DNA from: a virus
Lineage: Duplodnaviria; Caudoviricetes
Length of the DNA stretch: 56,257 nucleotides
Virus record (IMG/VR): IMGVR_UViG_3300037478_000584
Coordinates: 1 to 56,257 of that record
Reading direction: 5' to 3' (one strand)
Shown here: piece by piece, positions 30,812 to 45,945 of the stretch
Layout: every line of letters starts with the position of its first letter
Numbering within the stretch: position 1 is the stretch's first letter
The notes under the pieces: model-generated
What the model was told of the DNA's origin: nothing
What the model saw: only the letters and a program-made list of their open reading frames with translations
Database searches by the model: none
Translations under genes and position numbers: made by a program

Positions 30812-31192
30812 TCACTCGAAGATCGGCGCTGGTGACCCGAGGCTGGAGAGCGTGATGTTCTGGAGCACGGGCGCTCCGGCGCTGGACGATTGCGAGAAGG
30901 AGCGCACCAGGAAGGTGCCCTTCATCTTCTTGGAGCTTCCGATCTGTTGGACCATCAGCTCCACGGTTGCGCGCTCTCGTTTGCGCTTCTCCCAGTCGTA
31001 CTCCGCGCCGGCCTTCGGCACAGCGTTCGTCACGCTGACGTTCGTCACGTCAGGACCCGGAGCAACGCCGGTGCGACCGCCCGGAATGGTGTCGACGTCG
31101 GCGTCGTTGTTGGGCTCTTCGACCTCGACGGTCTGGTTCTGAAAGAGCAAGATGCCGTCCGCGAAGACGACCATGTTAGGGTACAGGCTCAT
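30812..31192 (-). CDS. tail tube protein
   Basis: 126 aa beta-rich ORF directly after the sheath. Confidence 0.75.
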   Translation of the reverse strand: MSLYPNMVVFADGILLFQNQTVEVEEPNNDADVDTIPGGRTGVAPGPDVTNVSVTNAVPKAGAEYDWEKRKRERATVELMVQQIGSSKKMKGTFLVRSFSQSSSAGAPVLQNITLSSLGSPAPIFE

Positions 31193-31203
31193 GGCTTACT
31201 CCG

Positions 31204-32751
31204 TCAGACCTGAGGCGACGCTTCCTGAATGGAGACGTCGGTGCCGAGGTTGTGCTGCACAGCGAACAGCGTCACGACGGTCGGGAACCGGCCCGCTCCG
31301 TCGTATTGCACGCTGAGTCGCGCCTTCATCTCAGCGAGACGAGACGGCGCGAGAATGGGCCCCTGGTAGCGGCCCTGTAGCGGCGCGCTGCTGCACAGCG
31401 AATCGAACAGGCCTTCCCACATGCCTCGAACGAGTGCGGGAACGGTGGTCTTTGCAGGAGGCGGAACGTCGCCCGTCGGATCGAAATCCGCGAACGGCTG
31501 GCGAATCTGCGCCCAGCGCTGCCGCGCCTCGTTCCAGACGAAGTGCGCCACGCTCGCGATGTGGCCCTCGCGCGCCCGATAGTCGTTGTCGCCGTCGTCG
31601 TTCATCGATCGATTCGTGATGAACCGCTTCATGACGACGCGGCCCTTCTCGACCGCGAGCGGCGTCACGCCGTTGTTGAGCTGCGACTTCTGCTCGGTGC
31701 TCGTCGGGTAGTCGGCAGCGTCGAGTGGCGCGGGAATGCCGGCCATGACGATGCCATTCGTGTTCGCCCCGGGATGCGCGATCTCCTGCGCACGGACCGC
31801 TGCGCACGTGTACGCGGCGATCTGTCCGGGAAGAAGCGGACAGTCCTCCAGTTGAATGCCGTGCGCGTACACGGAGTTCATTGGCGAGGCGACCGGGACC
31901 GTGGTGCTCTCTGCGCTGGTGCCGACCATTCCGTAGAAGAGCCGCATGTCCTTGCCGTTGATCGGCAGGGCCTGATTGGTGATTGCGACCTGCAACTCGC
32001 CGAGGCCGTTGTCAGTCGCGGTTGGCGCCTGCACGTCAGTCTTGGCCGCGACGACGTAGTAGATGTCGTCGAGGTTCGACAGCTCGATGATTGCGTTCGT
32101 CCAATCGTCCTCGGTCGCGCCGCTCGTGAGCGTCGACTTCGTGATCGTCTGGCCGTTGTCGCCGAGCGCCGTAACGGTCAGCTCGTTGAGGACATGGGTG
32201 CCGCGCGTCCCCTTGTGGGAGAATGTGACGTCGACCTTGTAGTCCGGCCCGCCACCGTCGATTGCGGCAACCGCCGTGACGGGAAGTTGCCCACCATCGT
32301 AGCTGTTGATCGCATCGGCGACGGCCGTAGCGGTGGTCGTCTCCTGGTCGCCGGACGCAACCGGAACGAAGATGCGCTCGCCGAGGAAGTCGATTCGCCA
32401 GCCACTGACCGAATCGCTGTCGTCCGCGATGACGAGCTTCAGCGCCGCCGCGGTGCCGCCCGATTCGGCCACCGGAATGGCGCGGATCTCGACGTCCTGC
32501 GCCACCATCATGAAGCGACGGAACATGGCGTGCGCTTCGGACCGGGAGCCGAACAGCGCCCTGCTGTCCGCGTCGCTTTCGATCGGGTCCGTGATGACGT
32601 CCGCCGTTGCGGTGCCGGCGGCCGTCAGGTTGCCGATCAGAACGACCTTGCGCTCGTCGGAGATGCCCGCACCGACGCCGGCCGCGAATACGAACTCGCG
32701 TGCGACGCGGGGCAGCGGATCGCTCGGATCCAACCCAGTCAGTCCAGCCAT
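31204..32751 (-). CDS. contractile tail sheath protein (Mu gpL-like)
   Basis: KVVLIG..TAAGTA, ALFGSRSEAHAM, EQKSQLNNGVTPL, RFIT. Confidence 0.9.
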   Translation of the reverse strand: MAGLTGLDPSDPLPRVAREFVFAAGVGAGISDERKVVLIGNLTAAGTATADVITDPIESDADSRALFGSRSEAHAMFRRFMMVAQDVEIRAIPVAESGGTAAALKLVIADDSDSVSGWRIDFLGERIFVPVASGDQETTTATAVADAINSYDGGQLPVTAVAAIDGGGPDYKVDVTFSHKGTRGTHVLNELTVTALGDNGQTITKSTLTSGATEDDWTNAIIELSNLDDIYYVVAAKTDVQAPTATDNGLGELQVAITNQALPINGKDMRLFYGMVGTSAESTTVPVASPMNSVYAHGIQLEDCPLLPGQIAAYTCAAVRAQEIAHPGANTNGIVMAGIPAPLDAADYPTSTEQKSQLNNGVTPLAVEKGRVVMKRFITNRSMNDDGDNDYRAREGHIASVAHFVWNEARQRWAQIRQPFADFDPTGDVPPPAKTTVPALVRGMWEGLFDSLCSSAPLQGRYQGPILAPSRLAEMKARLSVQYDGAGRFPTVVTLFAVQHNLGTDVSIQEASPQV

Positions 32752-33152
32752 CAGCTATTCCCTCCAGCCGCATCGGCCTTCTTCGGCCCGACGTTGCTCT
32801 GAGAGAGCTTGCCGGCCTGCTTCGCTGCGCCCATGAGCGCCGCTGCCTTCTGAGCGGTACGGGCCGCCACGGGCTCGCCGAGTTGCTCAAGTTCGTCGCG
32901 CGCGATCAGCTTCTTGACGCTGTGGTCCAGCTCGATCAGCACCGGCTCGGCCGAGATCGGAAAGCGCTCGCACAGCGACAGTTCGCGCACCATCACGCCC
33001 TCGCTCTTGGCGAGCTTGCGGACCGCGTCGTAATCGAGCGCAGTGCGCCCGAGGAATCGGCGCTGGCCGGTATGCGTCGGGCCGTACTCTGGTTCGCGCG
33101 GGTCGGGCACAGCAATGCCATCAACCGCCCGCACACGGACGAATCGTTTCAT
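32751..33152 (-). CDS. pre-sheath protein (Mu gp38/DUF2635-like)
   Basis: VRVRAVDGIAVPDP N-terminus; directly upstream of the sheath. Confidence 0.55.
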   Translation of the reverse strand: MKRFVRVRAVDGIAVPDPREPEYGPTHTGQRRFLGRTALDYDAVRKLAKSEGVMVRELSLCERFPISAEPVLIELDHSVKKLIARDELEQLGEPVAARTAQKAAALMGAAKQAGKLSQSNVGPKKADAAGGNS

Positions 33153-33433
33153 TCTTGTCGGCTCTCCGGGTGTAGGGAGGTCGTGGTCAGCGGCGCGTCG
33201 TTGCGTCGCGGAATGGTGCGGCTCGTGTTCGCGCTCAGCGTCTTGCGCCGAGCCGTCGAGTGAATGGCCGCCGCGCAGCCATGGGAAAGGTGCGGATGAG
33301 ACCGGAGCGCTATCCACCCTCCCGTGAGGGCGGGCTTCCGTTTGGCGTCGGTTGCTCGGCGTCGCGCATTAGCTCTGCGCCCAAAGACGCCGCCCACGCA
33401 CGCAATGGTCCACCGCGGGACCGACAATGAAGT
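33153..33433 (-). ncRNA. candidate structured leader/ncRNA upstream of the tail operon
   Basis: ~280 nt without a convincing ORF; several hairpins (see findings). Confidence 0.35.
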
Positions 33434-33982
33434 CTAGAGGAGCGCTCCGGCGCCGGTCTGAATCCAGCCCACCGCCGCGCTACGGTACTTGCACTCGATC
33501 CACTGCTCGGTTGCAGCGTCCAGCACGGCAATCGTCGAGGCGTCCAGCCCGTTCTTGACCGTGACGGTGAACGCGGCCGTGTCGTTCCGCACGATGCGGA
33601 TCGTGTCGCCCGCGATGGCGCCAGCGGTGCCGAGCGTGAGGGAGCGATTGTCCGTGAGCGGAACGCTCGGGAGCACGCGCACCAGGCCGTCGGCCACCGT
33701 GATGGTTGCGTCCGCGTCGCCCAGGTCCGCACCGAAGCGGTTGGCCACGACCCGAATGAACCGGCCCGCAGTGCCGCCGCCCGTGGGGTTGACGACGTTG
33801 AAGCCGTCAGCCGTCGAGGTGTCGTGCGGTACCCAGCGGTACAGGTCGCCCGTATCCTCCAGCACCACCCACTTCGCGGTCGGCTCGCCAGGCTCCTGCG
33901 CGAGCTTGGCCAGCGACGTGGTGCCGCTCGGCGCAGCAATGACCGTCGCGCTACGGCGGCCGTATGGGGTGCGGAGCGTCAT
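33434..33982 (-). CDS. virion decoration/fibre-like protein
   Basis: LYRW...TADGFNVVNPTGG..GRFIR; DNRSLTLGTAGAIAGDTIRIVR. Confidence 0.55.
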   Translation of the reverse strand: MTLRTPYGRRSATVIAAPSGTTSLAKLAQEPGEPTAKWVVLEDTGDLYRWVPHDTSTADGFNVVNPTGGGTAGRFIRVVANRFGADLGDADATITVADGLVRVLPSVPLTDNRSLTLGTAGAIAGDTIRIVRNDTAAFTVTVKNGLDASTIAVLDAATEQWIECKYRSAAVGWIQTGAGALL

Positions 33983-33983
33983 T

Positions 33984-34023
33984 GCTTATGGTGGTGCGCG
34001 GCGTGGCTTACAGTGGCGGGATG
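33984..34023 (+). promoter_or_regulatory. GCTTATG-class leaderless promoter (TTATGG-17-TACAGT-6-ATG)
   Basis: Seen in sequence. Confidence 0.7.
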
Positions 34024-34398
34024 AACACTCAACGAAACGAACCGCGTACGTGGACCGTGCCGGAGCCGGAGGGACCGCGAAGTCTCGCACGGGCCGACGG
34101 CGCCTTCGTGCTGGTCAATGGCTGGCAGCTACGGTACGATCCGGAGCCGGAGCACCGTGCCGCAGTGACGGCGGAGTTCCGGGCCGAGCACCAGTGTGGG
34201 CGCAGCAGCGGACCGAACCGGGCCGAAGTGCGACGGCTCTATGCGACCAGTCGCGGGCGGGCGGGGAAGTTGGCGGACCGTGAAGGGGACAGGGCGCGAC
34301 TGATGTCCGCGTTGCTGCCTGGCGGCGCCCCGGTCAGCGACGAAAAGGAGCGGGCCGCGAGGAATCGGGCCAAGGCGAAGCGGAGGGCGCGGCGGTGA
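34021..34398 (+). CDS. hypothetical protein with basic C-terminus
   Basis: Leaderless ATG; C-terminus RNRAKAKRRARR. Confidence 0.55.
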   Translation: MNTQRNEPRTWTVPEPEGPRSLARADGAFVLVNGWQLRYDPEPEHRAAVTAEFRAEHQCGRSSGPNRAEVRRLYATSRGRAGKLADREGDRARLMSALLPGGAPVSDEKERAARNRAKAKRRARR

Positions 34399-34619
34399 AG
34401 GAACGGAATCGACGCGCCGACCTCATCGCGCTGTGCGACTTGTTCATCGGCGGCATCAGGTCAGGTTATGAGGAAGACGCGCCACGCCTCAACGGGCGAG
34501 AGGCGCTCGGACTGTCCAGGTCTGACCCAGACGACGAGGCCTACTTCGAATCGCTGGGCGTGGAGATGGTCCCGTTCCTGCGTGAATTCTGGCTGGAACT
34601 GCGGGGTCGCGATGTGTGA
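34395..34619 (+). CDS. hypothetical protein
   Basis: GTGA overlap, GGAGG RBS. Confidence 0.55.
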   Translation: MKERNRRADLIALCDLFIGGIRSGYEEDAPRLNGREALGLSRSDPDDEAYFESLGVEMVPFLREFWLELRGRDV

Positions 34620-34881
34620 CCACAATGACACCGTTCCGCTGCTCGTGTTCCTGCCGGCGAGTCACTCGCACACCGGCGAGGGACGATGGGTCACGAAGCC
34701 GGTTGACCGCTGTGTCGCGCCGTTGGTTGACGCCTTGAACCGGCACGGGGTGCTCACGCTCTCGTCTTGCTGTGGTCACGGCAAGGGGCCAGGGTCGATC
34801 CGTCTGCAAGACGGGCGGGAGTTGGCGGTTCACGAGCAGTTCGTGACCAGCAAGCCGCTCAACTTTGGGGCGCAGCAGTGA
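34612..34881 (+). CDS. phage protein of the D.C.A.LV.ALN..G..T..SCCGHG family (Tyw3-N-like motif)
   Basis: VDRCVAPLVDALNRHGVLTLSSCCGHG. Confidence 0.65.
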   Translation: MCDHNDTVPLLVFLPASHSHTGEGRWVTKPVDRCVAPLVDALNRHGVLTLSSCCGHGKGPGSIRLQDGRELAVHEQFVTSKPLNFGAQQ

Positions 34882-35120
34882 GCCAAGAAACGAGGGCGCC
34901 CGATTGGCTCTCGCACTGGTACCAGGCCCAGATCGCCGATCTATGGCACGTCCCTGTAGACGACGTTACCGTGACGTCGTGGAAACCGGGAGACGGCGTC
35001 AGGGCGACGGTGACGGTGCACCAGCCTGTTCACCGGGTGACGTTCACGATCCAAGAGTGCGAACCGGAGCCGGACGCTACGGAGCCGCCACCCTCGGCAC
35101 CGCCCCGCGACGCCCCCTAG
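34878..35120 (+). CDS. small protein, weakly sheath-C-terminus-like
   Basis: VRATVTVHQPVHRVTFTIQ; GTGA overlap. Confidence 0.5.
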   Translation: MSQETRAPDWLSHWYQAQIADLWHVPVDDVTVTSWKPGDGVRATVTVHQPVHRVTFTIQECEPEPDATEPPPSAPPRDAP

Positions 35121-35298
35121 CGAGCCACAGGAGCGCTTCCGCCATGTCGGCGGGGCGCTCGTAGCCTTGCAGGTACAAGTCGCGGCACACCGCCTCAACG
35201 TCGCCGCGAGGCGTATCGGGAAACGAGGCGCGGACCGTGGTGAGGAGTGGCGCGCGGTGGGCGTGCCAGAGGGCAGCGAAGGGGTCAGGCATCGCCAA
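35077..35298 (-). CDS. small protein resembling ECF sigma region 2
   Basis: FAALWHAHRAPLL...GDVEAVCRDLYLQGYE...LLWLAR. Confidence 0.45.
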   Translation of the reverse strand: MAMPDPFAALWHAHRAPLLTTVRASFPDTPRGDVEAVCRDLYLQGYERPADMAEALLWLARGRRGAVPRVAAP

Positions 35299-35605
35299 TC
35301 ACCGTGAAGTGGTCAATCACTGCGCTCGGGCGACGCATCGGGACGACGCGGTCCGTCGTTTCGCCACGCGTGATGTCCCACCGCTCACCGTTCGGAGGCA
35401 CGTCGCCGGGCCACCGTGGGTACCAGTGTGGAGTGTGCGGCACGCATGGCAGCGGTCCGATCACGGGACCGCCCTTGCGAAGCGCTTCCTCGATCTGCTC
35501 GCCGACGGTCTTGGCTTGCTGCGGCACGCATGGGCACCGCTCGACACCAGGCGCGACGCCTCCGTTGCATGCTGGACAGAGCCAGCCTTTGCGGTCAGCA
35601 CTCAT
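35285..35605 (-). CDS. zinc-ribbon phage protein
   Basis: GWLCPACNGGVAPGVERCPC. Confidence 0.6.
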   Translation of the reverse strand: MSADRKGWLCPACNGGVAPGVERCPCVPQQAKTVGEQIEEALRKGGPVIGPLPCVPHTPHWYPRWPGDVPPNGERWDITRGETTDRVVPMRRPSAVIDHFTVIGDA

Positions 35606-35786
35606 CGCATGTCCCAAGGTCGCACGCGCCGTAGAAGGTGTCTTCCGCGACGGAGCGCTCAATCTCGCGCGCGACGCGTTGCCGCTCGCTCCGCTTGGCG
35701 GCGCGGTAGTGCTCGGTCGGCACCTTGCCGTCGCAATCCATGTTGGTTGCGTCGCGCGAGACGCGGCCTTTGATGTGGGTCGTCAC
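35595..35786 (-). CDS. hypothetical protein
   Basis: GTGA overlap with the upstream ORF. Confidence 0.5.
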   Translation of the reverse strand: MTTHIKGRVSRDATNMDCDGKVPTEHYRAAKRSERQRVAREIERSVAEDTFYGACDLGTCDEC

Positions 35787-36274
35787 AGGAACGGACTCCG
35801 CTCGCCGATGCTCTTAGCTTCGAAGTAGTCGCGGCCCGCGTCTTTCACGAGGCGCTGTAGCAAGAACTCGCCTTGCAGCGTGTCGTTGCATCCCACCTCG
35901 CGACAGGCGAGCGTGACGATGCGCCTCTCACGCATCACCGTGCGCAGGTACCCACGGTGCTCGTCGGAGAGTGCCAACGACCCATGTACCGTGACGCTTT
36001 CGACGGGAGGCATCGAGTCGTCGCGCCCTACGATCGTGTCAGGAATCGGCGACACATCCTCGATGCGCAGGTCGCGGCAAAGGCTGACGAACATCCCGTC
36101 GACGAACACCGCCACCGATTCGGGGCGCGACTCACCGGCCAGGTTCATGGCGTCCACTTCCGCCATGGCCTCGCGCAAGCAAAGCAGAGCGGTCGCCTCG
36201 TTCTTGCCGCTACCGGTCAGCGTTACGGTGACGCCAGCGGCAGGAGACTTGTCGATGCGAATCGTGCGGCTCAT
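35783..36274 (-). CDS. diverged tail-tube paralog with N-terminal extension
   Basis: Colinear motifs shared with 30812..31192 (see findings). Confidence 0.65.
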   Translation of the reverse strand: MSRTIRIDKSPAAGVTVTLTGSGKNEATALLCLREAMAEVDAMNLAGESRPESVAVFVDGMFVSLCRDLRIEDVSPIPDTIVGRDDSMPPVESVTVHGSLALSDEHRGYLRTVMRERRIVTLACREVGCNDTLQGEFLLQRLVKDAGRDYFEAKSIGERSPFL

Positions 36275-36534
36275 GCCCGCGCCCCTTCCCACCGCCACCC
36301 CATGGCGCCCAACGTCTCGCCGCGGTCCAGGCCGTGCAGCACCCCGAGAAGGTGCGCGTCGGCCTGGTGCAGCAGCAGCGTGTGCATGAGTTGCTGACGG
36401 AACAGGATCGCGTCCGTAGCGGTCAGGAGCGGCTTGGTCGCCTGGCAGTACGACGGGGAATCGTAGCGCTGCGATTCCACCTCGGCGTTGATGCCGGCGA
36501 TGGTGGCGCCGAACTTAATAAGGCGGGACGTCAC
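36271..36534 (-). CDS. small protein resembling a major capsid protein segment
   Basis: GINAEVESQRYDSPSYCQATKPLLTATDA vs MCP GEAARVHETRGTDSYVCANRAFTDALDA. Confidence 0.5.
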   Translation of the reverse strand: MTSRLIKFGATIAGINAEVESQRYDSPSYCQATKPLLTATDAILFRQQLMHTLLLHQADAHLLGVLHGLDRGETLGAMGWRWEGARA

Positions 36535-36812
36535 TTGACGGACTCCGGGACGATGCGAGTCACAGTGAAAATCGCAGCAGGAGCTGGAAAGAGTCCAGCC
36601 CCGTCGTACTCAACAGAAAGGAGTCGATCCATTTCCTTCGAGTGCTCCGGGCCCGCTACCTTGAAATCCAATGCGTCGAAGAACTCCGACAGCGCGACTC
36701 CAAGTGCGACGATGGCTTCGGCCTCACCATCGGAGCCAATGGACTCTTTGAGGGCAACGTGCCTTTCCTCAATCGCATCCCGAAGCGCGTAGAGGTTCCT
36801 TTGGCTCTTCAC
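36531..36812 (-). CDS. stand-alone copy of the tail sheath C-terminal region
   Basis: LSVEYDGAGLFP vs sheath LSVQYDGAGRFP; GTGA overlaps at both ends. Confidence 0.75.
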   Translation of the reverse strand: MKSQRNLYALRDAIEERHVALKESIGSDGEAEAIVALGVALSEFFDALDFKVAGPEHSKEMDRLLSVEYDGAGLFPAPAAIFTVTRIVPESVK

Positions 36813-37381
36813 TTGACGCGCTCCAGCGCGACGGTCGGGTGCTTCTCGGTCTCGGTTGCTGCGTACTTGCCGCCGCTGAACGGATTGTACCGCTCCACTT
36901 CGCGCTCGCACGTGGCAATACCATCCGTGACGTCTACGACGACCTTATGCAGTCCGCCGCTCTTGAGCCGCACGACGTCGCCCGGTTCGATGGGGCGGTC
37001 GCCGATCTTGATGGTCTCGCCCATGATGTTGACGGACCAAACTCGGTTGCTCGGGTGTCGGCGGGCTACTCGGCGATTGCCGACACGTTCCACGCGGGGC
37101 AACGCGAGCGCATCGCACCGGTCATCCTTGCTGCAATCGTGCAACTCGCGGCGCAACTCCTCGGCCTTCGCCGCGTCGTCGTAGGCCATCTGGCGGACCG
37201 TGTCGGACAACTCTGCAAGCTCGATCGCAAGGTCGTCACGAAGGGCTCTGCGCTGCTCGTACTCACCAGCCGTGCAGTCGTAGAAGATGTGGGCGCCAAG
37301 CACAGCGTCAGCCGCCTTGATCGCCGAGAGGTGTTGCCGAAGGGCGTTATGCAGCTCGTTGCTACGTGGCTTGAGTTTCAC
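36809..37381 (-). CDS. hypothetical protein with C-terminal YodC/DUF2158-like domain
   Basis: PGDVVRLKSGG. Confidence 0.6.
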   Translation of the reverse strand: MKLKPRSNELHNALRQHLSAIKAADAVLGAHIFYDCTAGEYEQRRALRDDLAIELAELSDTVRQMAYDDAAKAEELRRELHDCSKDDRCDALALPRVERVGNRRVARRHPSNRVWSVNIMGETIKIGDRPIEPGDVVRLKSGGLHKVVVDVTDGIATCEREVERYNPFSGGKYAATETEKHPTVALERVK

Positions 37382-37575
37382 TTCGCACCCCCGAGCAGCT
37401 CACGCTTCGCACAGTCTCCGCACGTGGCGAAGCTTGACGGCGTGGTCTCGCCGGGGCGCATCCACACGAGGTCGCCCGCCTCGATGGTGTCGTCGCATTC
37501 GTGGCACGGAACTTCGCAAAGCACCATGTCGAAGTGTCCCGTGTGGCTGATGTGGTCGGTTGCGTTGCTATTCAT
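37378..37575 (-). CDS. small zinc-binding protein
   Basis: CHECDDTIEAGD...CGDC. Confidence 0.6.
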   Translation of the reverse strand: MNSNATDHISHTGHFDMVLCEVPCHECDDTIEAGDLVWMRPGETTPSSFATCGDCAKRELLGGAK

Positions 37576-37613
37576 GCCGCCACGTATCGCACGCCATCGC
37601 GCCGCCCATAAGC
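37573..37613 (-). promoter_or_regulatory. GCTTATG-class leaderless promoter (TTATGG-17-GATACG-7-ATG; weak -10)
   Basis: Intergenic motif heading the 37575-35077 operon. Confidence 0.55.
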
Positions 37614-37614
37614 G

Positions 37615-37962
37615 TCACGCAACGCGAATCAGCTTCACGGGCAGCGGCAATGGCTCACCATCGTCACCGTCCGGGCCGTCGTCGTCGCCCGCCGCATCCC
37701 ACTCTTGCAGGTGGATGATGCACGTATCGTCAATGCCGAACTCGATCGACATGACCGCCATCATGAACGCCCACGCGCGCCCGCCCAGTTCGGCCAGCAC
37801 CGCAATGAGCGTATCGTCACGGAGGTGTGGCCAGCACGCGTCAATCAGCACGCTGTCGGCGCTGCACTGCACGCGAATGGCGGGCTGCTTGTCATGCGAC
37901 AGAGCGAGCGTGAATGCTGCGCCGATGTCCGATGCGTCGCCGATCTGGAGGGAGCGGGTCAT
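37615..37962 (-). CDS. hypothetical protein
   Basis: ATGA overlap with the 37959 gene. Confidence 0.5.
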   Translation of the reverse strand: MTRSLQIGDASDIGAAFTLALSHDKQPAIRVQCSADSVLIDACWPHLRDDTLIAVLAELGGRAWAFMMAVMSIEFGIDDTCIIHLQEWDAAGDDDGPDGDDGEPLPLPVKLIRVA

Positions 37963-38732
37963 GGCTCTTGGTCCTCGCTCCCGTCCGGGCCGGTCAGGAT
38001 CCCGTCCTTGACCTGCACACCGTCCTCGTACAGGTCGGCGTCGTAGTCGCGCAGCACGTCGTCCGGCTCGACCAGTTGCTTGCCCTCGATTAACTCGCGG
38101 ACACGGAACATGGCGACGAATGCCGGATAGTCTCGGCCCGATACGCGGCGGCCAACGTCGCGGGTGTTCGCGTCGTCAATGCCGATCCGCTGCACACCTT
38201 GCCCGCCGAGCCATTCCCACTCGACGCCGTACGGTGCGTCCCATGATTCGTCGAGGGGCGTGCCGAGCGGGCGCGAGTTGTAACTCCACGTCGGGTGGTA
38301 GCCGTTCCGTGACGCTTTGGCGAATGCCGCGTCGACCGCATTGAACACGCCGCGCCGGTCGTCGAGCGCCGCTTCTTTCGGGCGCTCTTCGAACACGTAC
38401 ATGGCATGCACGTTCCGCTCGCGACCCTTCTGCACGATGCTGGGGTTCCACGGTACGGAGCGGCCGTCCCACCACAGATAGAGGGCAGGCACGTGGCGCA
38501 CCACGAAGTTCGCCTCGCGCTCGTATGGCGAGAAAGCGAACCGGTTCGCAGCGGGACAGGCGTCCGAGTTGTAGCCCGATACGTTGGCTAGTCGCGTGTC
38601 CAGCGCCTCTTTGATGTAGTGCGCCAGGAAGCTCAGCAGACCGTCGAGGAACGGATCGTCGACAGCGGCAGGCGCGGTGCCGGCCGTGATCGGAATCGTG
38701 AGCGCGCCGACGCGTGACGTTTCGGTGGGCAT
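37959..38732 (-). CDS. putative head-tail joining/tail terminator protein
   Basis: 257 aa, VPALYLWW; position downstream of the gp36-like gene. Confidence 0.55.
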   Translation of the reverse strand: MPTETSRVGALTIPITAGTAPAAVDDPFLDGLLSFLAHYIKEALDTRLANVSGYNSDACPAANRFAFSPYEREANFVVRHVPALYLWWDGRSVPWNPSIVQKGRERNVHAMYVFEERPKEAALDDRRGVFNAVDAAFAKASRNGYHPTWSYNSRPLGTPLDESWDAPYGVEWEWLGGQGVQRIGIDDANTRDVGRRVSGRDYPAFVAMFRVRELIEGKQLVEPDDVLRDYDADLYEDGVQVKDGILTGPDGSEDQEP

Positions 38733-38829
38733 CGTGCGCTACTTGCAGAGGCTATTGGAATCGAACCAACAGCACGCAGGTTTGGAGCCCGCATCGCCAG
38801 CCTTGAAACATGAGCCCCCAATCGGGGCG

Positions 38830-39117
38830 TCACCAGCCAACGCGGACCTTTGCGACGTCCGTGCCAGTGGCGATGATGGTCTCCACGTACAGTGGCGACG
38901 GGTCCAGGTACGTGCCGCTCACGAGGCCCGTGTACGTCCGGTTGGCGCTGCCGCCAGAGGTCGTGACCACGATCGATCCGCTGCCGGCGTCGACGATGAA
39001 GATCGCGCGGGCCGGCGTTCGCGTATCGGGAGACGCCGAAACGAGATTGATGTCGACGCTGAAGTCGTCGTATTCGAGCGCGTCTTCGTGCGCGTGGATG
39101 GCTCGCTGTCGTGGCAT
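38830..39117 (-). CDS. head spike base-like protein (RcGTA Rcc01079-like)
   Basis: PARAIFI..GSGSIVVT....TYTGLVSGTYL...VETIIATGT. Confidence 0.6.
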   Translation of the reverse strand: MPRQRAIHAHEDALEYDDFSVDINLVSASPDTRTPARAIFIVDAGSGSIVVTTSGGSANRTYTGLVSGTYLDPSPLYVETIIATGTDVAKVRVGW

Positions 39118-39118
39118 G

Positions 39119-39158
39119 GCTTATGGTGCGGCTCGTTGCGAGCTATCGTGGTGCGATG
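39119..39158 (+). promoter_or_regulatory. GCTTATG-class leaderless promoter (TTATGG-17-TATCGT-6-ATG)
   Basis: Seen in sequence. Confidence 0.7.
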
Positions 39159-39347
39159 CGTGAAGGATGGCGCGAATTGCTGGACCACATGCGCGACGTA
39201 GCGGAGCGTTGCCCACCGCGACCAACGCGCGTCATCATGACGGGTAGCGTCGTGATGTGGTTCGATGCGGAGACGGGGAAGCTTGTCAACGCACGAACGA
39301 TCAGCGGCGTAATGCGAGAACTCAGAACGCCCCCATTCCACGCGTGA
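39156..39347 (+). CDS. small moron protein (MREGWRELLDHM...)
   Basis: Leaderless start; antisense to the head genes. Confidence 0.55.
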   Translation: MREGWRELLDHMRDVAERCPPRPTRVIMTGSVVMWFDAETGKLVNARTISGVMRELRTPPFHA

Positions 39348-39807
39348 AGAACGGCGGGCACGGGGTCGTATCGTCCGGGTCGCCACTCCGCACGCCGCCG
39401 CCTTCATTGACGGCGGGCTCCGGTGCGGCGCCTTCATTGTCGAGTTCAAGCTCACGGACGCGGAGCATCTTGAGGTGGCTCTCCACCATTGCTTCGCGCT
39501 GCGCCCATCCGCCACGAATGAACTCGGGGTGACGCCTCATGGCACGCACCTCGAATACATCGAGGGCCATGCGCTTGACGGCACGTGGCGCATCGGTACC
39601 GAGCGCGCGCATCGTCGTGATCCCGCCCGGTCCGTACGTCTTCTGAATGGTCTGCTCCACCACGGACTCAGCGTCCGCGATGTAGTCATTGACCAGGTCT
39701 TCGTCGACCGTACCGTCACGGTCATCGTCGAAGATCTGTTCGTACAGCTCCGACGTGAGACGGCGCGTGATGTCCGCCTCGATCAGGTACGTGCCGGCGA
39801 TGGCCAT
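39322..39807 (-). CDS. head-tail adaptor (Mu gp36/DUF1320)
   Basis: YLIEADI...DDDRDGTVDEDLVNDYIADAESVVE. Confidence 0.8.
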   Translation of the reverse strand: MAIAGTYLIEADITRRLTSELYEQIFDDDRDGTVDEDLVNDYIADAESVVEQTIQKTYGPGGITTMRALGTDAPRAVKRMALDVFEVRAMRRHPEFIRGGWAQREAMVESHLKMLRVRELELDNEGAAPEPAVNEGGGVRSGDPDDTTPCPPFFTRGMGAF

Positions 39808-39810
39808 TGG

Positions 39811-40278
39811 TCAGTTAGCCGCCCGCACGAATTCGCACCCCTTGCCGCGCGCCTCATCGAGACAGCGCTCCGGGACGCTCATCGTGCCGCCACCCATGAT
39901 GCGCTGCCGCACCTTGACGCCGCCGATCGTGCCGGCAAACGGGCCACTGCCCGTCCAGCGCACGACCACGTAGGGCTCGGATGGCGCCGCCTCCTCAGGC
40001 TCCGGCTCGACCGGAGCGTCCGGTTCGGCGGCCTGAGGTTGCGGCTCGGTGGATTCGTCGGACTCAGAATCGGCCCCAGGAAGCTCCGCGTCGTCCGGAC
40101 CGGCAAGCACCGGCTCGGAGGGTTGCGGCGCGCCCTGGTGGCCGTCAGGCGCCGGGGCGTGGCTGCCTGGACCGGGACCACCCGGCACGGACTGCTCCGC
40201 CTCGACCGAGATGGCCGGCTCGCTTTCGGTGGGGGCCGGAGCGGACCCCGGCCCACGGGTACGATTGCGACGGCTCAT
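39811..40278 (-). CDS. hypothetical Pro/Glu-rich protein after the capsid gene
   Basis: 155 aa ORF in the head operon. Confidence 0.55.
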   Translation of the reverse strand: MSRRNRTRGPGSAPAPTESEPAISVEAEQSVPGGPGPGSHAPAPDGHQGAPQPSEPVLAGPDDAELPGADSESDESTEPQPQAAEPDAPVEPEPEEAAPSEPYVVVRWTGSGPFAGTIGGVKVRQRIMGGGTMSVPERCLDEARGKGCEFVRAAN

Positions 40279-40284
40279 CTAGAC

Positions 40285-41550
40285 CTACGCCAGAACGTCC
40301 GAGTACAAATAGCCCGCGTCAGACGCCTGGATCTTGTGCGCCTCGGACTCGCCCACCTTGGCCCAGTACGAGCCGCCGAAGCCCTTGTTGGGCTCGAACC
40401 ACTGCGAGGTGAGAATGCCCTGGTTCATGCCGGGAACGCCGGCGGCGAGCCAGCGCATCGTGAGAGCGAACGTGGCGGACCGGAGCGTGGCGCGCTCGGC
40501 GACACGGAGGACGCCGAAGAAGTCGCCCCACACCCGCGAGTAGGTGGGCGTCGCGATGTTGACCGCGTCGCTGTCGTACCGCGACTTGCCGATGAGGTAG
40601 TCGTCGAGACCGAGGAACGTCGAGATCATGCCGGGGGTCGCGAGACCGACCGACTGGCCGCTGTACTGGAAGAGTCCGGTGATGTCCGGGTGCCGCGACA
40701 GGACGTTGTAGATCTCCAGGCTGGAGAACGCCTTGGTGCGCGCCGGAGACCGACCGCGCCAGAGCGCCGCGATGGCGTCCTGGATGTTCTTGAGCGGTGC
40801 GCCGCCGCCCGCGCTGTTCCACTGGTCAGCACCGGCGAGCGTCGCCTTGTTGCCGCTGGGGTAGTTGCCAGCGGTGGTGAGCGCCGACGCGATACGAATC
40901 TCACGAGCCAGTGCGCGACGCTCCACGAGGCCCTCAACGAGATCGAACATCTCATTGAGCGGCGCGTCCTGGTTCGCCACGGTGTCGGCGTCGAGAGCGT
41001 CCGTGAAGGCCCTGTTGGCGCAGACGTAGCTGTCGGTGCCGCGGGTCTCGTGAACACGAGCCGCCTCGCCGCCAACCGCCACCGAGTCATTGGCCGGGAG
41101 GGCCAGACGGTCACGCTTGCCATAGGTCGGGAACTCGTCGCTCTTCTTGCCGACCAGCACGGGCGGCGCGAGCATCTCGCCGATGAACTCGTCGTTTCCG
41201 TACTGCGTCGAGATCTGCGCCAGGAACGAATCGCTGTGGACGTCGCTCGAACTCAGGCTGTTGCGCACCCGGCGGTCGAACGAAGCGTTCTGCGCCTGCC
41301 AGGCCTTGGTGCCGCGCGGGTCGCTGATCGCCGAATGGATCTTGCGCGACCAGTTGCGGTAGCGATTGCCAGGGCTCGCAGCGTTGCGCTGCCGTTCGCC
41401 GAGGATGGCGTGCCAGGCCGCGTCGGCGTCGTACCCACGGGTACCAACGCCAGCGCCCTCGAACGCCTTGATGTTCTCCATGTCCGCATCGGACAGGACC
41501 ACGGTCTTCTTGACGGGCTCGCCGCCGGTGATTGCACTCATTGCTGTCAT
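40285..41550 (-). CDS. major capsid protein (Phage_cap_E-like)
   Basis: LAQISTQYGNDEFIGEMLAPPVLV, LAREIRIA, DQW....PLKNI, DAGYLYSDVLA. Confidence 0.9.
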   Translation of the reverse strand: MTAMSAITGGEPVKKTVVLSDADMENIKAFEGAGVGTRGYDADAAWHAILGERQRNAASPGNRYRNWSRKIHSAISDPRGTKAWQAQNASFDRRVRNSLSSSDVHSDSFLAQISTQYGNDEFIGEMLAPPVLVGKKSDEFPTYGKRDRLALPANDSVAVGGEAARVHETRGTDSYVCANRAFTDALDADTVANQDAPLNEMFDLVEGLVERRALAREIRIASALTTAGNYPSGNKATLAGADQWNSAGGGAPLKNIQDAIAALWRGRSPARTKAFSSLEIYNVLSRHPDITGLFQYSGQSVGLATPGMISTFLGLDDYLIGKSRYDSDAVNIATPTYSRVWGDFFGVLRVAERATLRSATFALTMRWLAAGVPGMNQGILTSQWFEPNKGFGGSYWAKVGESEAHKIQASDAGYLYSDVLA

Positions 41551-41564
41551 GCTCCGTATGGCGA

Positions 41565-41975
41565 TCAGACGCCGCGATTGGCCGCACCGCTCAGGAGCAA
41601 TGGGGCGAGGTCTCCGGCGTCAGCGGACGCGAGGAAGATTCCGTAGGTCGACTCGTTGCCGGTGCCGTCCGAGTCGTGCGCGGCAGCGTCGGTGAATCCG
41701 GTCGCAACGAGCACGGCCTTGGTGCCGCGGGTTGCGCCGCCGGTCCCGACCTTCACAGGGACGATGGCGTGGCCGAACATGGCGACGCGGCACTTCTCGC
41801 CGGCTGCCTTGGTTTCGAGGGCCACGCCGATGGCGAGATCGCTCGCGGCGTCGCAGTCGTCGATGGTGGTGTCGCTGTCCAGTTTGACAGCCTCGCCGAG
41901 GGTAGCGGTGTCGCCGGAGGCGACCTCGTACTCCATGACGAGCATGTGCTCAGATCGTTCAGTGCATGCAGCCAT
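41565..41975 (-). CDS. capsid decoration/cement protein (DUF2190-like)
   Basis: AIGVALETKAAGE..RV...G.., GIFLASADAGD. Confidence 0.75.
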   Translation of the reverse strand: MAACTERSEHMLVMEYEVASGDTATLGEAVKLDSDTTIDDCDAASDLAIGVALETKAAGEKCRVAMFGHAIVPVKVGTGGATRGTKAVLVATGFTDAAAHDSDGTGNESTYGIFLASADAGDLAPLLLSGAANRGV

Positions 41976-41985
41976 GATGATGTCC

Positions 41986-43275
41986 TCAGCTAAGCGAGGC
42001 GGCGAATCGCGCAAACGCGTCCTCGTCGCCGGAGTCATTGATGCTCTCGGGAAGCGGCTCTTTGCCCATTCCCGCCGGGTCAGCGCTGAGCGTCGTCTTC
42101 GGCGCGCGCTGCTCCACGAACTTGTTGAAGAGGTCGCGATTCGTCTTCGCCAGGGCGAGGTACTGATCGCGCTCACACGGGTCGATCTTCACGCCGACCA
42201 ATGCGTCGACCTCGGCCGCGAGGACCTGGTCGTTGAGCGCCGCGGCGTTCTTGACCGCCTCGTCACGCTCGGCACAGAGCTTCTCGTTCTGCGCGTTGAG
42301 GGCCGCGACGTCAGCGGCGAGCTTGATCGACTCGTCCGCCTTGGCCTTCGCCTCGGACTTGGCCGCATCGAGAGCGGCATTCGCGGAATCGCGCTCGGTG
42401 CGCATCTGGGCGGTCTCGCCCTGCGCGGCCTTGAGCGCGGCTTGCAATTCAGTAAGGTCCACTTTGGGAGCCTCCGGTGTTTGGTTGTTGCTATCAGCGC
42501 CGCGCTCTGCGGCGAGAATCTGGGAGAACCGGGAAGCTTCGAAGCTCGTCGCCGCGTCCGCGATTAGTTTGAACGAGGCAATGACCTCGTCATGATTGGT
42601 TGCGCGGAAGGTGTGCTTACGACCGCTCGCCACGATGTTCAGGTCCGGCGCGTTCTTGCTGCGGCCTAGCAGGCTCGCGGCAATGCGGCTGATGCTCGCC
42701 ATCGCGCTATCCGCCTCATCGTCCGCCACCATGACGCCAGTGCAGAACCCGTCCCGCACCGCGTCCTCGGCGCCCATCCACGTCTCGGCCCGCATCAACT
42801 CGCGGCATTCGTCGAAGCTCTTTGCGGACCGGCGCTCATAGGTCTTGCACAGCGCGTCCGCGATGAGGTCGAGCGATTCGGCCTGGGACCGGAAGTCCTC
42901 GGCGTTGCCCATTGCGATGGTCCACGGATCGTGAATCATCACCATGGCATTCTCCGCGATGAGCCGCTCCGTGCCGGCCATTGCGATGATGCTCGCAGCG
43001 GAGATGGCCGCGCCATCCACCTTCGTTACGATCTTGCGACCGTCATTGACGAGGAGGTTGTAGATCGCCACGCCCTCGAACGCGTCGCCGCCGAACGAGT
43101 TGATCCGCACCACGATGTTGTGGTGACGGGGCGCTTCCTTCAGCTCCGCAGCGATACGGTTCGCCGTAACGGCGTTCTCGTTCCACCACGACTCGCCGAT
43201 GTCCGAGTAGACAAGGATCTCCGTCTCACCCAGCGCCACGGCCTGCGGCTTGGCCGCGTCAATCTTCGTCGGCAT
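41986..43275 (-). CDS. ClpP-type head maturation protease fused to scaffold
   Basis: RINSFGGDAFEG, AISAASIIAMAG, MIHDPW, ETWM; coiled-coil C-terminus. Confidence 0.9.
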   Translation of the reverse strand: MPTKIDAAKPQAVALGETEILVYSDIGESWWNENAVTANRIAAELKEAPRHHNIVVRINSFGGDAFEGVAIYNLLVNDGRKIVTKVDGAAISAASIIAMAGTERLIAENAMVMIHDPWTIAMGNAEDFRSQAESLDLIADALCKTYERRSAKSFDECRELMRAETWMGAEDAVRDGFCTGVMVADDEADSAMASISRIAASLLGRSKNAPDLNIVASGRKHTFRATNHDEVIASFKLIADAATSFEASRFSQILAAERGADSNNQTPEAPKVDLTELQAALKAAQGETAQMRTERDSANAALDAAKSEAKAKADESIKLAADVAALNAQNEKLCAERDEAVKNAAALNDQVLAAEVDALVGVKIDPCERDQYLALAKTNRDLFNKFVEQRAPKTTLSADPAGMGKEPLPESINDSGDEDAFARFAASLS

Positions 43276-44809: not shown

Positions 44810-44821
44810 TCACGGTCCCGC

Positions 44822-45415
44822 TCAGGCGGCGAGGATCTGCGGCGTGTATTCGAGCCACACGGCGTGGATCGACACGTCGTCGGTATCGAGCAAGTCGTCT
44901 GTCGGCTGAATGGTCAGCGTCATGACGGCGGGGGCCGCAGGGACGTCAGCCGCTGCGATGGTTAGCGTCACTTCCTGGACCGTCTTGGCCGCAGCGTCGC
45001 CGGTCATTGCGGTGGTGTCGCCACCCGCGTCGGCGTCAGCATCATGCAGCGCTCCGACCGTCTGGAAGAAGGCCTGGCAGGTGAAGGTCGTGGCGTCCGC
45101 GAGGGTCGCGCCGTGCTTGCTGGCCATGATGTGGATCACGACGTCCTGGCTGTCGTCCAGGTCCTTCGGCATGAAGACGGTCGTGCCGATCGGGTCCGGC
45201 GTGGCCGAATCGTTCCACCGAATGCTGAGCGCCTCGCTGTTGTCCAGCGAGTAGCCAGGCACGTTACTGGTGCCGCTGGAGAATACGGCGAGTGCCGTTC
45301 CGTCCGCCTCCTGAAAGGAGAAGAGCGGGATGTTGATCGGGTTCTGAGCGCTGAAGATGTGCTTCTGAAGGGCGCGCCCAATGAGGCACCCATGCTTCGG
45401 TCCGCGAGTTCCCAT
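44822..45415 (-). CDS. hypothetical virion protein
   Basis: 197 aa acidic beta-sandwich-like; AGGA RBS. Confidence 0.55.
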   Translation of the reverse strand: MGTRGPKHGCLIGRALQKHIFSAQNPINIPLFSFQEADGTALAVFSSGTSNVPGYSLDNSEALSIRWNDSATPDPIGTTVFMPKDLDDSQDVVIHIMASKHGATLADATTFTCQAFFQTVGALHDADADAGGDTTAMTGDAAAKTVQEVTLTIAAADVPAAPAVMTLTIQPTDDLLDTDDVSIHAVWLEYTPQILAA

Positions 45416-45502
45416 GTCGTAATGCTTCCTGTCGCGCCGCTATGGGCGCCGGTCTGGTCAAGCCAGTGGCGTGACGGTTTGGTTCGCGAATGGCGAACGG
45501 TG

Positions 45503-45543
45503 GCTTATGGTCGCGCAGCGGAGCGGGTAGGCTCGACGCTATG
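45503..45543 (+). promoter_or_regulatory. GCTTATG-class leaderless promoter (TTATGG-17-TAGGCT-7-ATG)
   Basis: Seen in sequence. Confidence 0.7.
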
Positions 45544-45792: not shown

Positions 45793-45945
45793 CCAGTAGG
45801 CGGTTGACGTCACGAAGCTCACTGTCGGTCACCTCATCGGAGCGCGAGGACCCCACGCAGAGCGGGCCGTCTCGGCTCGGTTCGCTGTGGCCCGCGGATG
45901 GGCGTTTGGTCGCGCGACGTTGCGCTGTGACGCGTCGCAGGCCGG

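What the first reader, a model, noticed from the sequence alone, without database searches (positions are those of the whole stretch)
35783..36274. Second, diverged tail-tube paralog in an accessory operon
Motifs colinear with the tube gene 30812..31192: AVFVDG/VVFADG, DTIVG/DTIPG, and an ungapped 25-residue block RERRIVTLACREVGCNDTLQGEFLL vs RERATVELMVQQIGSSKKMKGTFLV (9 identities), ending SIG/SLG. It has an extra ~50 aa N-terminal domain that could block stacking. Tube mimicry has precedent as anti-defence (DSAD1 competing with the tube for DSR2). Function here is inference.
Basis: partly seen in the sequence, partly recalled or inferred. Interest (0 to 1): 0.82.

Follow-up and report, generated by a model that had tools for sequence, protein, structure and literature searches.

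The report
Diverged extra tail-tube gene copy
This phage carries a second, strongly diverged but still protein-coding copy of its tail-tube gene, sitting next to a leftover piece of a sheath gene in an inserted block that related phages lack, so it looks like a structural gene copy turned to some new, still unknown use.

Summary
The gene at 35783-36274 (-), 163 aa, aligns end to end with the phage's 126-aa tail tube (BLASTP E 7e-6; hhalign against the tube clade E 1.4e-5). It is the only non-tube hit of a tube HMM among 1249 ORFs, and it has 52 extra N-terminal residues. No homologue was found in 1.84 billion representative proteins.

It lies in a ~4 kb block between the tail terminator gene (37959-38732) and the next tail gene (33434-33982). 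That block is absent in 3 of 3 related phages.

New here: two ORFs upstream, the block also holds a vestige of the sheath C-terminus (E 7e-7, closest to this phage's own sheath). A weaker terminator vestige may precede it, in the same order as the real genes. The copy therefore came from a partial duplication of the tail module.

Codon periodicity, codon usage and in-frame gaps indicate a live gene. It keeps only 8 of 14 highly conserved tube residues.

The conserved terminator is a different gene, and absence from relatives makes an essential role unlikely. Whether the copy is in virions was not testable. The anti-defence decoy idea is untested, and the cited precedent (DSAD1) shows competition for a binding site, not homology-based mimicry. 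Moderately interesting as gene birth from a structural gene.

The parts
35783..36274 (-). Candidate gene, 163 aa (stop included): tube paralogue with an N-terminal extension
   Evidence: ORF. ATG 36274 overlaps the TGA of the upstream ORF. The gene call P0001 is identical. GC at codon positions 1/2/3 is 0.64/0.46/0.81. Codon-usage score is 0.30 bits/codon, the best of six frames.
35783..36118 (-). Tube-like domain (residues 53-163), colinear with the whole 126-aa tube
   Evidence: BLASTP E 7e-6. hhalign E 1.4e-5. Alignment A5. AF2 pLDDT is about 82-96 over most of the domain, but 56-66 over residues 71-90 and 58 over the last three residues. VIA Z 9-12 to solved tubes and Hcp over model residues 47-163. 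8 of 14 tube columns conserved at 90% or more are kept.
36119..36274 (-). N-terminal extension of 52 aa with no counterpart in tubes; helix predicted at residues 24-45
   Evidence: Alignment A5. AF2 pLDDT 36-68. GC by codon position is 0.62/0.54/0.79. Codon score 0.36 bits/codon. Its only database hits are repeat proteins that I judged spurious.
36271..36534 (-). 87-aa ORF between the sheath vestige and the tube copy; translationally coupled to both
   Evidence: GC3 0.89. Codon score 0.35. No Pfam, PHROG or PADLOC hit.
36531..36812 (-). 93-codon ORF whose C-terminal part (36561-36659) is a vestige of the sheath C-terminus
   Evidence: blastp E 7.8e-4 among 1249 ORFs. tblastn matches sheath residues 466-498 at 45% identity, E 7e-5. 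BLASTP E 7e-7. Smith-Waterman score is 76 against the phage's own sheath, versus 36, 41 and 24 against relatives' sheaths; 0 of 1000 shuffles reach it. The start, GTG 36812, forms a GTGA overlap with the preceding ORF.
36809..37381 (-). 190-aa ORF; residues 127-167 weakly resemble the terminator C-terminus
   Evidence: BLASTP E 0.001, 15/41 identities. z 5.7, one of three pairs with z>4 among 130 tested. Weak evidence.
33983..37958 (.). Lineage-specific ~4 kb block between the terminator gene and the next conserved tail gene
   Evidence: In L003 and L008 the homologues of 37959-38732 and 33434-33982 are adjacent. In L010 the terminator is followed by a 138-aa ORF and then the sheath. The source-run contigs bridge both borders of the block.
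37959..38732 (-). Conserved tail terminator (257 aa)
   Evidence: Homologues in L003, L008 and L010. ESM Atlas structure neighbours include PF23840 Phage_tail_terminator and PF11367 Tail_completion_gp17, both meeting the tool's bar for a name.
31204..32751 (-). Tail sheath (515 aa), parent of the vestige
   Evidence: phrog_165 tail sheath, E 1.3e-44.
30812..31192 (-). Bona fide tail tube (126 aa), directly downstream of the sheath
   Evidence: PF06199 at E 0.0031, below Pfam's cut-off. 6 of 21 family members hit PF06199, best E 1.2e-5. Conserved after the sheath in L003, L005 and L010.

Best explanation
The gene is a live, strongly diverged paralogue of this myovirus's tail tube. It was born when part of the tail module was copied into the site just after the terminator gene. 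The copied part held the sheath 3' end and the tube, and perhaps the terminator 3' end.

The sheath part shrank to a ~33-aa vestige. The tube part kept its full length and its reading frame. It gained a 52-aa N-terminal extension and lost about half of the family's most conserved residues, among them the Gly/Pro-rich GxAPGPDVT loop and a 5-residue stretch near the C-terminus.

It lies on the same strand as the head and tail genes and upstream of the tube gene, so it is probably made late, with or just before the tube (inferred).

My best guess at mechanism is inference, not shown. I think it is a soluble tube-monomer look-alike that no longer polymerises, and that it acts by occupying a partner surface that normally binds the tube subunit. 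That partner could be a host sensor of tail proteins (a decoy role) or a component of the phage's own or a rival phage's tail assembly.

Shown: homology, origin by duplication, accessory status, coding constraint. Inferred: timing, loss of stacking, competitor or decoy action.
For: Homology to the tube:
- BLASTP E 7e-6 and hhalign E 1.4e-5, end to end.
- HMM rank 1 among non-tubes in 1249 ORFs.
- 1 of 3000 and 0 of 3000 shuffles reach the observed score.
- 18 of 21 family members score 44-76.

Fold:
- AF2 with alignment A5 gives pLDDT 74 overall and about 82-96 over most of the C-domain, apart from residues 71-90 and the last three.
- VIA Z 9-12 to tubes and Hcp; the top BFVD hits are tail tubes.
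- The Atlas single-sequence model has PF06199 and Hcp neighbours at TM 0.35-0.44.

Origin by duplication:
- A sheath C-terminal vestige lies two ORFs upstream and is closest to this phage's own sheath.
- Only 3 of 130 island-by-core protein pairs have z>4, and they lie in the same order as terminator, sheath and tube.

Accessory status: the block is absent in 3 of 3 relatives, and the candidate has no homologue elsewhere.

Live gene:
- The tube-like domain has codon-position GC of 0.66/0.42/0.82, like real genes.
- Codon score 0.30 bits/codon, best of six frames and within the range of core genes, 0.20-0.54.
- All four gaps against the tube are in frame.
- Nucleotide identity to the tube is 0.47/0.49/0.36 at codon positions 1/2/3, against chance 0.28/0.25/0.36.
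- ATGA coupling to the upstream ORF.

Change of function: only 8 of 14 columns that are at least 90% conserved among 19 tubes are kept.

Presence elsewhere: an identical 151-nt contig over 36155-36305 is present in a run of a second study.
Against: - No evidence of any kind bears on the partner or on decoy action.
- None of the 10 island proteins scanned hit a PADLOC family. None of those scanned hit Pfam at its cut-off, and their PHROG hits are all weak (E 0.001 or higher) and to families of unknown function.
- The gene is a singleton. With no orthologues, purifying selection cannot be measured directly.
- The pattern of identity by codon position is also expected if only the parent tube was constrained (my calculation from the figures).
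- In a 65% GC genome, long open frames arise by chance.
- The neighbouring sheath piece is clearly a remnant, so the tube copy might be one too.
- The AF2 fold rests on an alignment made of tube homologues, so it is partly circular. The single-sequence AF2 model failed, with pLDDT 37.
- A broader tube profile gives only Prob 31%, and Foldseek against the PDB had no hit at E <= 0.001.
Confidence: 0.4

Rival explanations
1. Leftover of a partial tail-module duplication with no present function. On this reading the ORF is open and looks like a gene only because of high GC and inherited composition. It may be transcribed within the late operon but does nothing.
For: - It sits beside an evident remnant of the sheath, about 33 aa of 515, and perhaps a remnant of the terminator.
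- It is a singleton with no homologue in 1.84 billion representative proteins.
- 6 of 14 highly conserved tube residues are lost.
- The adjacent 33983-35660 stretch has a weak coding signal in all frames, so parts of the block look decayed.
- The codon-position identity pattern fits this model too (my calculation).
Against: - At the depth of divergence implied by the identities at codon positions 1 and 2 (about 0.9 substitutions per site by my rough estimate), neutral decay should have flattened codon-position GC to about 0.59 at position 2 and 0.71 at position 3. The observed values are 0.42 and 0.82 over 111 codons.
- Neutral decay should also have produced frameshifts and about 4 stop codons in 163 codons. 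Instead, all four gaps are in frame.
- The codon score equals that of core genes.
- The new 52-aa N-terminal part also scores as coding, at 0.36 bits/codon.
- Start and stop overlaps with both neighbours are kept.
Confidence: 0.3
2. A minor virion or assembly protein: a tube-fold subunit that caps, starts or decorates the tube, as terminators and tube initiators do, in a version specific to this lineage.
For: - The tube fold is reused for terminators, initiators and hub proteins. Solved neighbours of the model include such chains from the monocin cap, the GTA neck, and the Mu terminator and baseplate entries.
- The gene lies on the late strand between the terminator and sheath genes.
- The C-terminal S-x-G-x3-P motif of tubes is kept.
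- An N-terminal add-on could make it a one-sided cap (inference).
Against: - It is absent in 3 of 3 relatives that share the terminator, sheath and tape-measure genes (the tube too in L003 and L010; the L008 tube is too diverged to detect by tblastn).
- A conserved terminator already exists.
- The most conserved tube loop is lost.
- It has no homologue in any other phage.
Confidence: 0.2
3. Chance resemblance: an unrelated small protein that happens to align with the tube.
For: - Identity is only 23%.
- There is no Pfam or PHROG hit.
- The broader profile gives Prob 31%.
- The Atlas TM scores are under 0.5.
Against: - Several measures agree.
- The alignment is colinear over the whole tube, including the C-terminal motif.
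- A sheath vestige lies upstream in the expected order.
Confidence: 0.04

Closest known systems
Tail tube proteins of contractile and non-contractile tails (Pfam PF06199 Phage_tail_2 and the clade of this phage's own 126-aa tube)
   Same: Homologous over the whole tube length. The same beta-sandwich-plus-helix fold is predicted. The conserved T, G, L-x-G-x-F and S-x-G-x3-P positions are kept.
   Different: Not next to a working sheath gene, and not conserved in relatives. It has a 52-aa N-terminal extension. It has lost 6 of 14 highly conserved residues, including those of the Gly/Pro loop, and a 5-residue stretch. It has no PF06199 hit.
Tube-fold paralogues with specialised structural roles: tail terminators, tube initiators, and Hcp variants (T4 gp3/gp48/gp54 and Afp1/5/7 are recalled, not tested here)
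   Same: A tube-fold protein derived from the tube and encoded in addition to the main tube. Solved terminator, neck and baseplate chains are among the fold neighbours.
   Different: Those proteins are conserved core parts. This one is a singleton in an inserted block, and the phage already has a conserved terminator.
DSAD1, the phage inhibitor of the tube-sensing defence protein DSR2
   Same: Only the idea: a phage protein that competes with the tube for a binding site (PMC11087589 abstract and passages).
   Different: In the passages I read, DSAD1 is not described as a tube homologue or mimic. I made no sequence or fold comparison with DSAD1. No DSR2-like host gene is known for this uncultured phage.

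Membership tests
Tail tube protein family (PF06199-like; clade of this phage's tube) | Significant sequence match to the family profile | tested here: inconclusive
   Pfam PF06199 gives no hit at E <= 0.1. The clade HMM gives E 8.5e-4 among 1249 ORFs. hhalign gives E 1.4e-5, Prob 80% with 12 sequences, but Prob 31%, E 5e-4 with 21 sequences. Homology is supported; formal Pfam membership is not reached. The real tube itself is also below Pfam's cut-off.
Tail tube protein family (PF06199-like; clade of this phage's tube) | Tube beta-sandwich fold | tested here: met
   AF2 with A5 gives C-domain pLDDT of about 82-96 over most of its length. VIA Z 9-12 over residues 47-163 to solved tubes and Hcp. 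BFVD top hits are tubes. Caveat: the alignment consisted of tube homologues. The alignment-free Atlas model gives tube and Hcp neighbours at TM of only 0.35-0.44, and single-sequence AF2 failed.
Tail tube protein family (PF06199-like; clade of this phage's tube) | Family's most conserved residues retained | tested here: inconclusive
   8 of 14 columns conserved at 90% or more among 19 tubes are kept; 12 of 44 at 70% or more.
Tail tube protein family (PF06199-like; clade of this phage's tube) | Encoded directly downstream of the sheath gene and conserved among relatives (core gene) | tested here: not met
   It lies about 3 kb upstream of the sheath gene, in a block absent in 3 of 3 relatives. 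It follows only a sheath vestige.
Tail tube protein family (PF06199-like; clade of this phage's tube) | Assembles into stacked hexameric rings in the virion | not testable with these tools
   A hexamer exceeds the copy limit of the complex tool. Needs virion proteomics or cryo-EM.
Tail terminator | Conserved gene between the head-tail adaptor and the sheath, with a terminator fold | tested here: not met
   That role is filled by 37959-38732. Its Atlas neighbours PF23840 and PF11367 meet the bar for a name, and it has homologues in L003, L008 and L010. The candidate is absent from those relatives.
Anti-defence proteins that compete with a structural trigger (DSAD1-like) | Binds a host sensor at the trigger's site and blocks activation | not tested
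   The host and its defences are unknown. No DSAD1 sequence was compared. None of the 10 island proteins scanned hit PADLOC, though PADLOC holds defence proteins, not anti-defence ones.

The most novel reading that the evidence does not exclude
The tube copy, perhaps together with the small protein that keeps the sheath C-terminal segment, is a homology-derived decoy. On this reading the phage copied its own tail proteins and reshaped them into non-assembling look-alikes. These would soak up a host immune sensor (or a rival's assembly factor) that recognises tube or sheath subunits. I found no paper describing an anti-defence protein made by duplicating the very structural protein that triggers the defence.
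Probability: 0.12. Interest if true: 0.85.

Novelty: new variant of a known kind. Interest (0 to 1): 0.45.

Why it matters
Phage accessory genes mostly have no traceable origin. Here the origin is legible. A piece of the tail module was copied into a new site in the late operon. The sheath part decayed to a stub, while the tube part stayed a working reading frame with a new N-terminal extension and a changed conserved loop.

That makes it a clean case for asking how structural genes give rise to new phage functions. If the product proves to compete with the tube for a host sensor or an assembly partner, it would show a simple route by which phages could make decoys of their own immune triggers. 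If it proves inert, it sets a useful baseline for how long a duplicated structural gene can keep looking like a gene.

Tried and rejected
- Homologue searches for the candidate found nothing usable. These were tblastn against 50,697 phage records, IMG/VR pattern scan plus tblastn, the word-indexed search of 5.8 billion proteins (itself only), and exhaustive phmmer against 1.84 billion representatives.
- The two non-self phmmer hits (P0002, P0003) are long repeat proteins matched in 6 and 14 stretches to the T/V/G-rich N-terminus. Pairwise BLASTP is only E 0.013, so I rejected them as a repeat or composition effect.
- ESM Atlas 'by features' gave WYL clusters at 0.83-0.84, under the tool's 0.9 lead threshold, so I rejected them.
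- Single-sequence AF2 gave pLDDT 37, which is unusable.
- PDB sequence searches with the tube profile and with the candidate gave 0 hits at E <= 10.
- Complex prediction of tube (A1) with candidate (A5) gave no verdict: score 0.06 against a mark of 0.32. This is not evidence either way.
- The short metagenome contigs L004-L007 do not reach the island site.
- No flanking repeats or attachment-like sites bound the block, and no sigma-70-like promoter was found in 32500-39500. The 9 terminator-like hairpins (3.3 expected) were not followed up.
- No RNA family or tRNA lies in the block.
- The other island ORFs have no informative match in Pfam, PHROGs or PADLOC, and the two that were searched against phage records gave none either.
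- No RNA holder was listed among the sequencing runs, so there are no expression data.
- The joints reported have sides of only 20-22 letters at 80% likeness. I treated them as noise.
- Literature searches for a tube paralogue acting as a decoy or anti-defence protein returned nothing on point in their listed results: 1 of 1 listed, 11 of 11, and the 12 listed of 270 and of 31 holders. Titles and abstract starts were read. For the DSR2/DSAD1 papers only term-search passages were read.
Full report
**Setting.** The window is a whole IMG/VR virus record of 56,257 bp, estimated 97% complete, with about 65% GC. Most of its morphogenesis genes lie on the minus strand:
- large terminase, 45946-47334
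- portal, 43259-44809
- protease, 41986-43320
- major head protein, 40285-41550
- a Mu gp36-like adaptor, 39322-39807
- a 257-aa protein, 37959-38732
- a 182-aa protein (33434-33982) and a 188-aa protein (32751-33317)
- sheath, 31204-32751 (phrog_165, E 1.3e-44)
- a 126-aa tube, 30812-31192
- two chaperone-like genes and the tape measure, 27035-29278

The tube matches PF06199 only weakly (E 0.0031, below Pfam's cut-off). However, 6 of 21 members of its family do hit PF06199, the best at E 1.2e-5, and the gene follows the sheath in relatives. The phage has no near relative among 50,697 deposited phage records.

**The observation.** The ORF can be read from a GTG at 36298 (171 aa). The ATG at 36274 is the likelier start: it overlaps the TGA of the upstream ORF (ATGA) and is the start used in the public gene call P0001, 163 aa.

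Several measures of similarity to the tube agree:
- BLASTP gives E 7e-6, with 23 identities in 100 columns.
- The Smith-Waterman score of 63 was reached by 1 of 3000 shuffles of the candidate and 0 of 3000 shuffles of the tube.
- A six-frame search of the whole genome with the candidate finds only itself and the tube, at E 0.0017.
- A profile HMM of 12 tube homologues, run against 1249 stop-to-stop ORFs of the window and related loci, ranks the candidate first after the true tubes. Its E-value is 8.5e-4, and the next ORF scores 0.18.
- hhalign of the same profile against the candidate gives Prob 80%, E 1.4e-5. It aligns tube residues 8-124 to the candidate's last 108 residues, through to the shared C-terminal S-x-G-x3-P motif.
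- 18 of 21 family members score 44-76 by Smith-Waterman. The best are P0017 and P0018 at 76, and the phage's own tube scores 63.

Against this, a broader 21-sequence profile drops to Prob 31%, E 5e-4, and neither Pfam nor PHROGs hits the candidate. I take the homology as real but remote.

**Fold.**
- AF2 on the single sequence failed, with pLDDT 37.
- With an alignment of the candidate plus 19 tubes (A5), AF2 gave mean pLDDT 74. Most of residues 51-160 score about 82-96. Residues 71-90, the counterpart of the tube's conserved Gly/Pro loop, score 56-66. The N-terminus scores 36-68, with a helix at residues 24-45.
- Foldseek against the PDB lists tail tubes first (monocin, PhiTE, GTA), but at E of only about 2e-3.
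- VIA-align gives Z 9-12 over model residues 47-163 to solved tubes and Hcp. In the entries I looked through in that list I saw only tail-tube, tube-like tail or neck, or Hcp chains.
- BFVD gives tail tube proteins first, with 10 hits at E <= 0.001.
- This model leans on a tube alignment, so it is not independent of the sequence result.
- The ESM Atlas's own single-sequence model (pLDDT 0.57) is independent of my alignment. Its nearest structures include PF06199 tube clusters and an Hcp cluster, but at TM of only 0.35-0.44.

**Accessory status.** The candidate has no homologue in any search:
- phage records
- IMG/VR
- 5.8 billion word-indexed proteins, which return only the candidate itself
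- 1.84 billion representatives read by phmmer, which return the candidate itself plus two repeat proteins. I reject those two as composition effects.

Three relatives that share the tail module were found:
- L003, a contig from a Planctomycetales MAG.
- L008, an IMG/VR contig. L009 is the same contig.
- L010, another IMG/VR contig.

In L003 and L008 the homologues of the 257-aa and 182-aa genes are directly adjacent. In L010 the 257-aa homologue is followed by a 138-aa ORF and then the sheath. So the ~4 kb between 33983 and 37958 is absent in 3 of 3 relatives.

The 257-aa protein is the tail terminator. Its Atlas structural neighbours include Phage_tail_terminator (PF23840) and Tail_completion_gp17 (PF11367), both at scores that meet the tool's bar for a name, as well as Mu Gp37-type clusters. 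The candidate is therefore neither the canonical terminator nor a core gene.

Contigs of the probable source run bridge both borders of the block. A run from a second study holds an identical 151-nt contig across 36155-36305.

**Origin.** The ORF at 36531-36812 lies two ORFs upstream of the candidate, and it ends with a segment homologous to the sheath C-terminus:
- Sheath residues 466-498 match window 36659-36561 at 45% identity, tblastn E 7e-5.
- BLASTP gives E 7e-7.
- 0 of 1000 shuffles reach the observed score.
- The Smith-Waterman score is 76 against this phage's own sheath, but only 36, 41 and 24 against the sheaths of L003, L005 and L008.

According to a review of sheath proteins, the conserved sheath core comprises the N- and C-terminal parts and contacts the tube (PMC9230969, abstract and conclusions passages).

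The 190-aa ORF before it (36809-37381) weakly resembles the terminator's last 41 residues, at E 0.001.

I tested 130 pairs, made of 13 block ORFs against 10 core neck and tail proteins. Only three pairs have z > 4:
- the 190-aa ORF with the terminator (z 5.7)
- the 93-codon ORF with the sheath (z 9.0)
- the candidate with the tube (z 8.6)

These three lie in the block in the same order as the real genes. The simplest reading is a partial copy of the tail module placed just after the terminator gene and then heavily reduced. The sheath vestige points to this phage's own lineage as the donor. The tube copy is about equally distant from the whole tube clade. If the two pieces are the same age, the tube copy has changed much faster than orthologous tubes, which are still 56-69% identical across the clade.

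**Is it a live gene?**
- The tube-like domain has GC of 0.66/0.42/0.82 at codon positions 1/2/3, and the new N-terminal part has 0.62/0.54/0.79. Real genes here look the same; the tube, for example, is 0.59/0.44/0.84.
- A codon model trained on 15 confident genes gives 0.30 bits/codon in the annotated frame. This is the best of the six frames and within the range of core genes, 0.20-0.54.
- All four gaps against the tube are in frame.
- Nucleotide identity to the tube is 0.47/0.49/0.36 by codon position, against chance values of 0.28/0.25/0.36. Third positions are saturated, while first and second positions are not.
- I note that this last pattern would also arise if only the parent gene were constrained.
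- By my rough estimate, however, that much neutral change (about 0.9 substitutions per site) should have flattened the GC periodicity to about 0.59 and 0.71. It should also have introduced frameshifts and about four stop codons.

On balance I judge the gene to be alive, but without orthologues this cannot be measured.

By the same codon measure, the minus-strand ORFs from 37962 down to 35595 all look coding, at 0.22-0.45 bits/codon. The stretch 33983-35660, which holds the plus-strand ORFs, does not.

**What changed.** Of 14 alignment columns that are at least 90% conserved among 19 tubes, the candidate keeps 8:
- T35, G39, L90, G92, F94, S117, G119 and P123 (tube numbering).

It has changed or deleted 6:
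- P27, V33, G42, G46, G62 and G106.

Most of the losses fall in or beside the tube family's most conserved stretch (P-D-N-D-A-D-V-D-T-x-x-G-G-R-x-G-x-A-P-G-P-D-V-T) and in a 5-residue deletion near the C-terminus. It has also gained 52 N-terminal residues.

I infer, without a test, that it no longer stacks as a normal tube subunit.

**Mechanism.** Nothing here shows what the protein does. It lies on the late strand, upstream of the tube. If the late transcript reads through the block, it would be made with or just before the tube.

My best guess (confidence 0.4 for the whole statement) is a non-polymerising look-alike of the tube monomer. It would act by competing for something that binds the tube subunit.

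Its rivals are:
- an inert leftover of the duplication (0.3)
- a lineage-specific minor tail or assembly protein (0.2)
- chance resemblance (0.04)

The decoy-against-defence version of my best guess is the boldest reading, and I put it at about 0.12. In the DSR2 papers I read only term-search passages. These say that DSAD1 occupies an overlapping site on DSR2 and competes with the tube (PMC11087589). The word 'mimic' occurs there only in the reference lists.

A prediction of the tube-candidate complex gave no verdict, which counts neither way.

Five literature searches found no paper describing a tube paralogue used as a decoy. For some searches only the 12 top-ranked of 270 and 31 holders were listed.

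**Verdict.** The origin by partial module duplication is new and well supported for the sheath-tube pair. The function remains inference.

It is a new variant of a known kind, namely tube-fold paralogues, and of moderate interest (0.45). Its main value is as a traceable case of an accessory gene born from a structural gene.

Noticed in passing
window 36531-36812 (-), core of the match 36561-36659: A 93-codon ORF ends with a vestige of the sheath C-terminus (45-50% identity over 30-33 aa). It is closest to this phage's own sheath. Its GC3 is only 0.64, but its own frame is the best of six by codon score.
   Followed up: yes
window 36809-37381 (-), residues 127-167: The 190-aa ORF weakly resembles the last 41 residues of the terminator (E 0.001, z 5.7). 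Together with the sheath and tube copies, this gives a colinear series of three vestiges.
   Followed up: partly
window 33983-35660: About 1.7 kb holds overlapping plus-strand ORFs (33964-34398, 34395-34619, 34468-34881, 34767-35120) and two minus-strand ORFs. The coding signal is weak in every frame except for one 74-aa ORF (34395-34619, 0.20 bits/codon). These ORFs face the late operon head-on. One of them has a 44%-identity match over 52 aa to an unannotated stretch of Cyanophage Cy-LDV1.
   Followed up: partly
L010 11545-13053: In this relative, two ORFs of 114 aa and 340 aa are inserted between the sheath and the tube. Phages of this group therefore accept extra genes at different points inside the tail module.
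   Followed up: no
L003 1-6700 versus window 39300-47400: L003 shares the tail module from the terminator onward but not the head module (no tblastn hits). L008 shares the portal, major head protein and adaptor as well. The mosaic boundary lies at the terminator gene.
   Followed up: partly
window 38830-39117 (-): A 95-aa ORF between the adaptor and the terminator has no counterpart in L008, where the adaptor abuts the terminator. It has a weak PHROG 'tail fiber protein' hit (E 1e-4).
   Followed up: no
window 48226-48302 (-): A single tRNA-Met gene (anticodon CAT).
   Followed up: no
window 36531-36553 and 36809-36831: The 190-aa and 93-codon ORFs both end with the same ...GTCAAGTGA (V-K-stop), which overlaps a GTG start of the next ORF. 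This is a 23-nt direct repeat at 78% identity.
   Followed up: no
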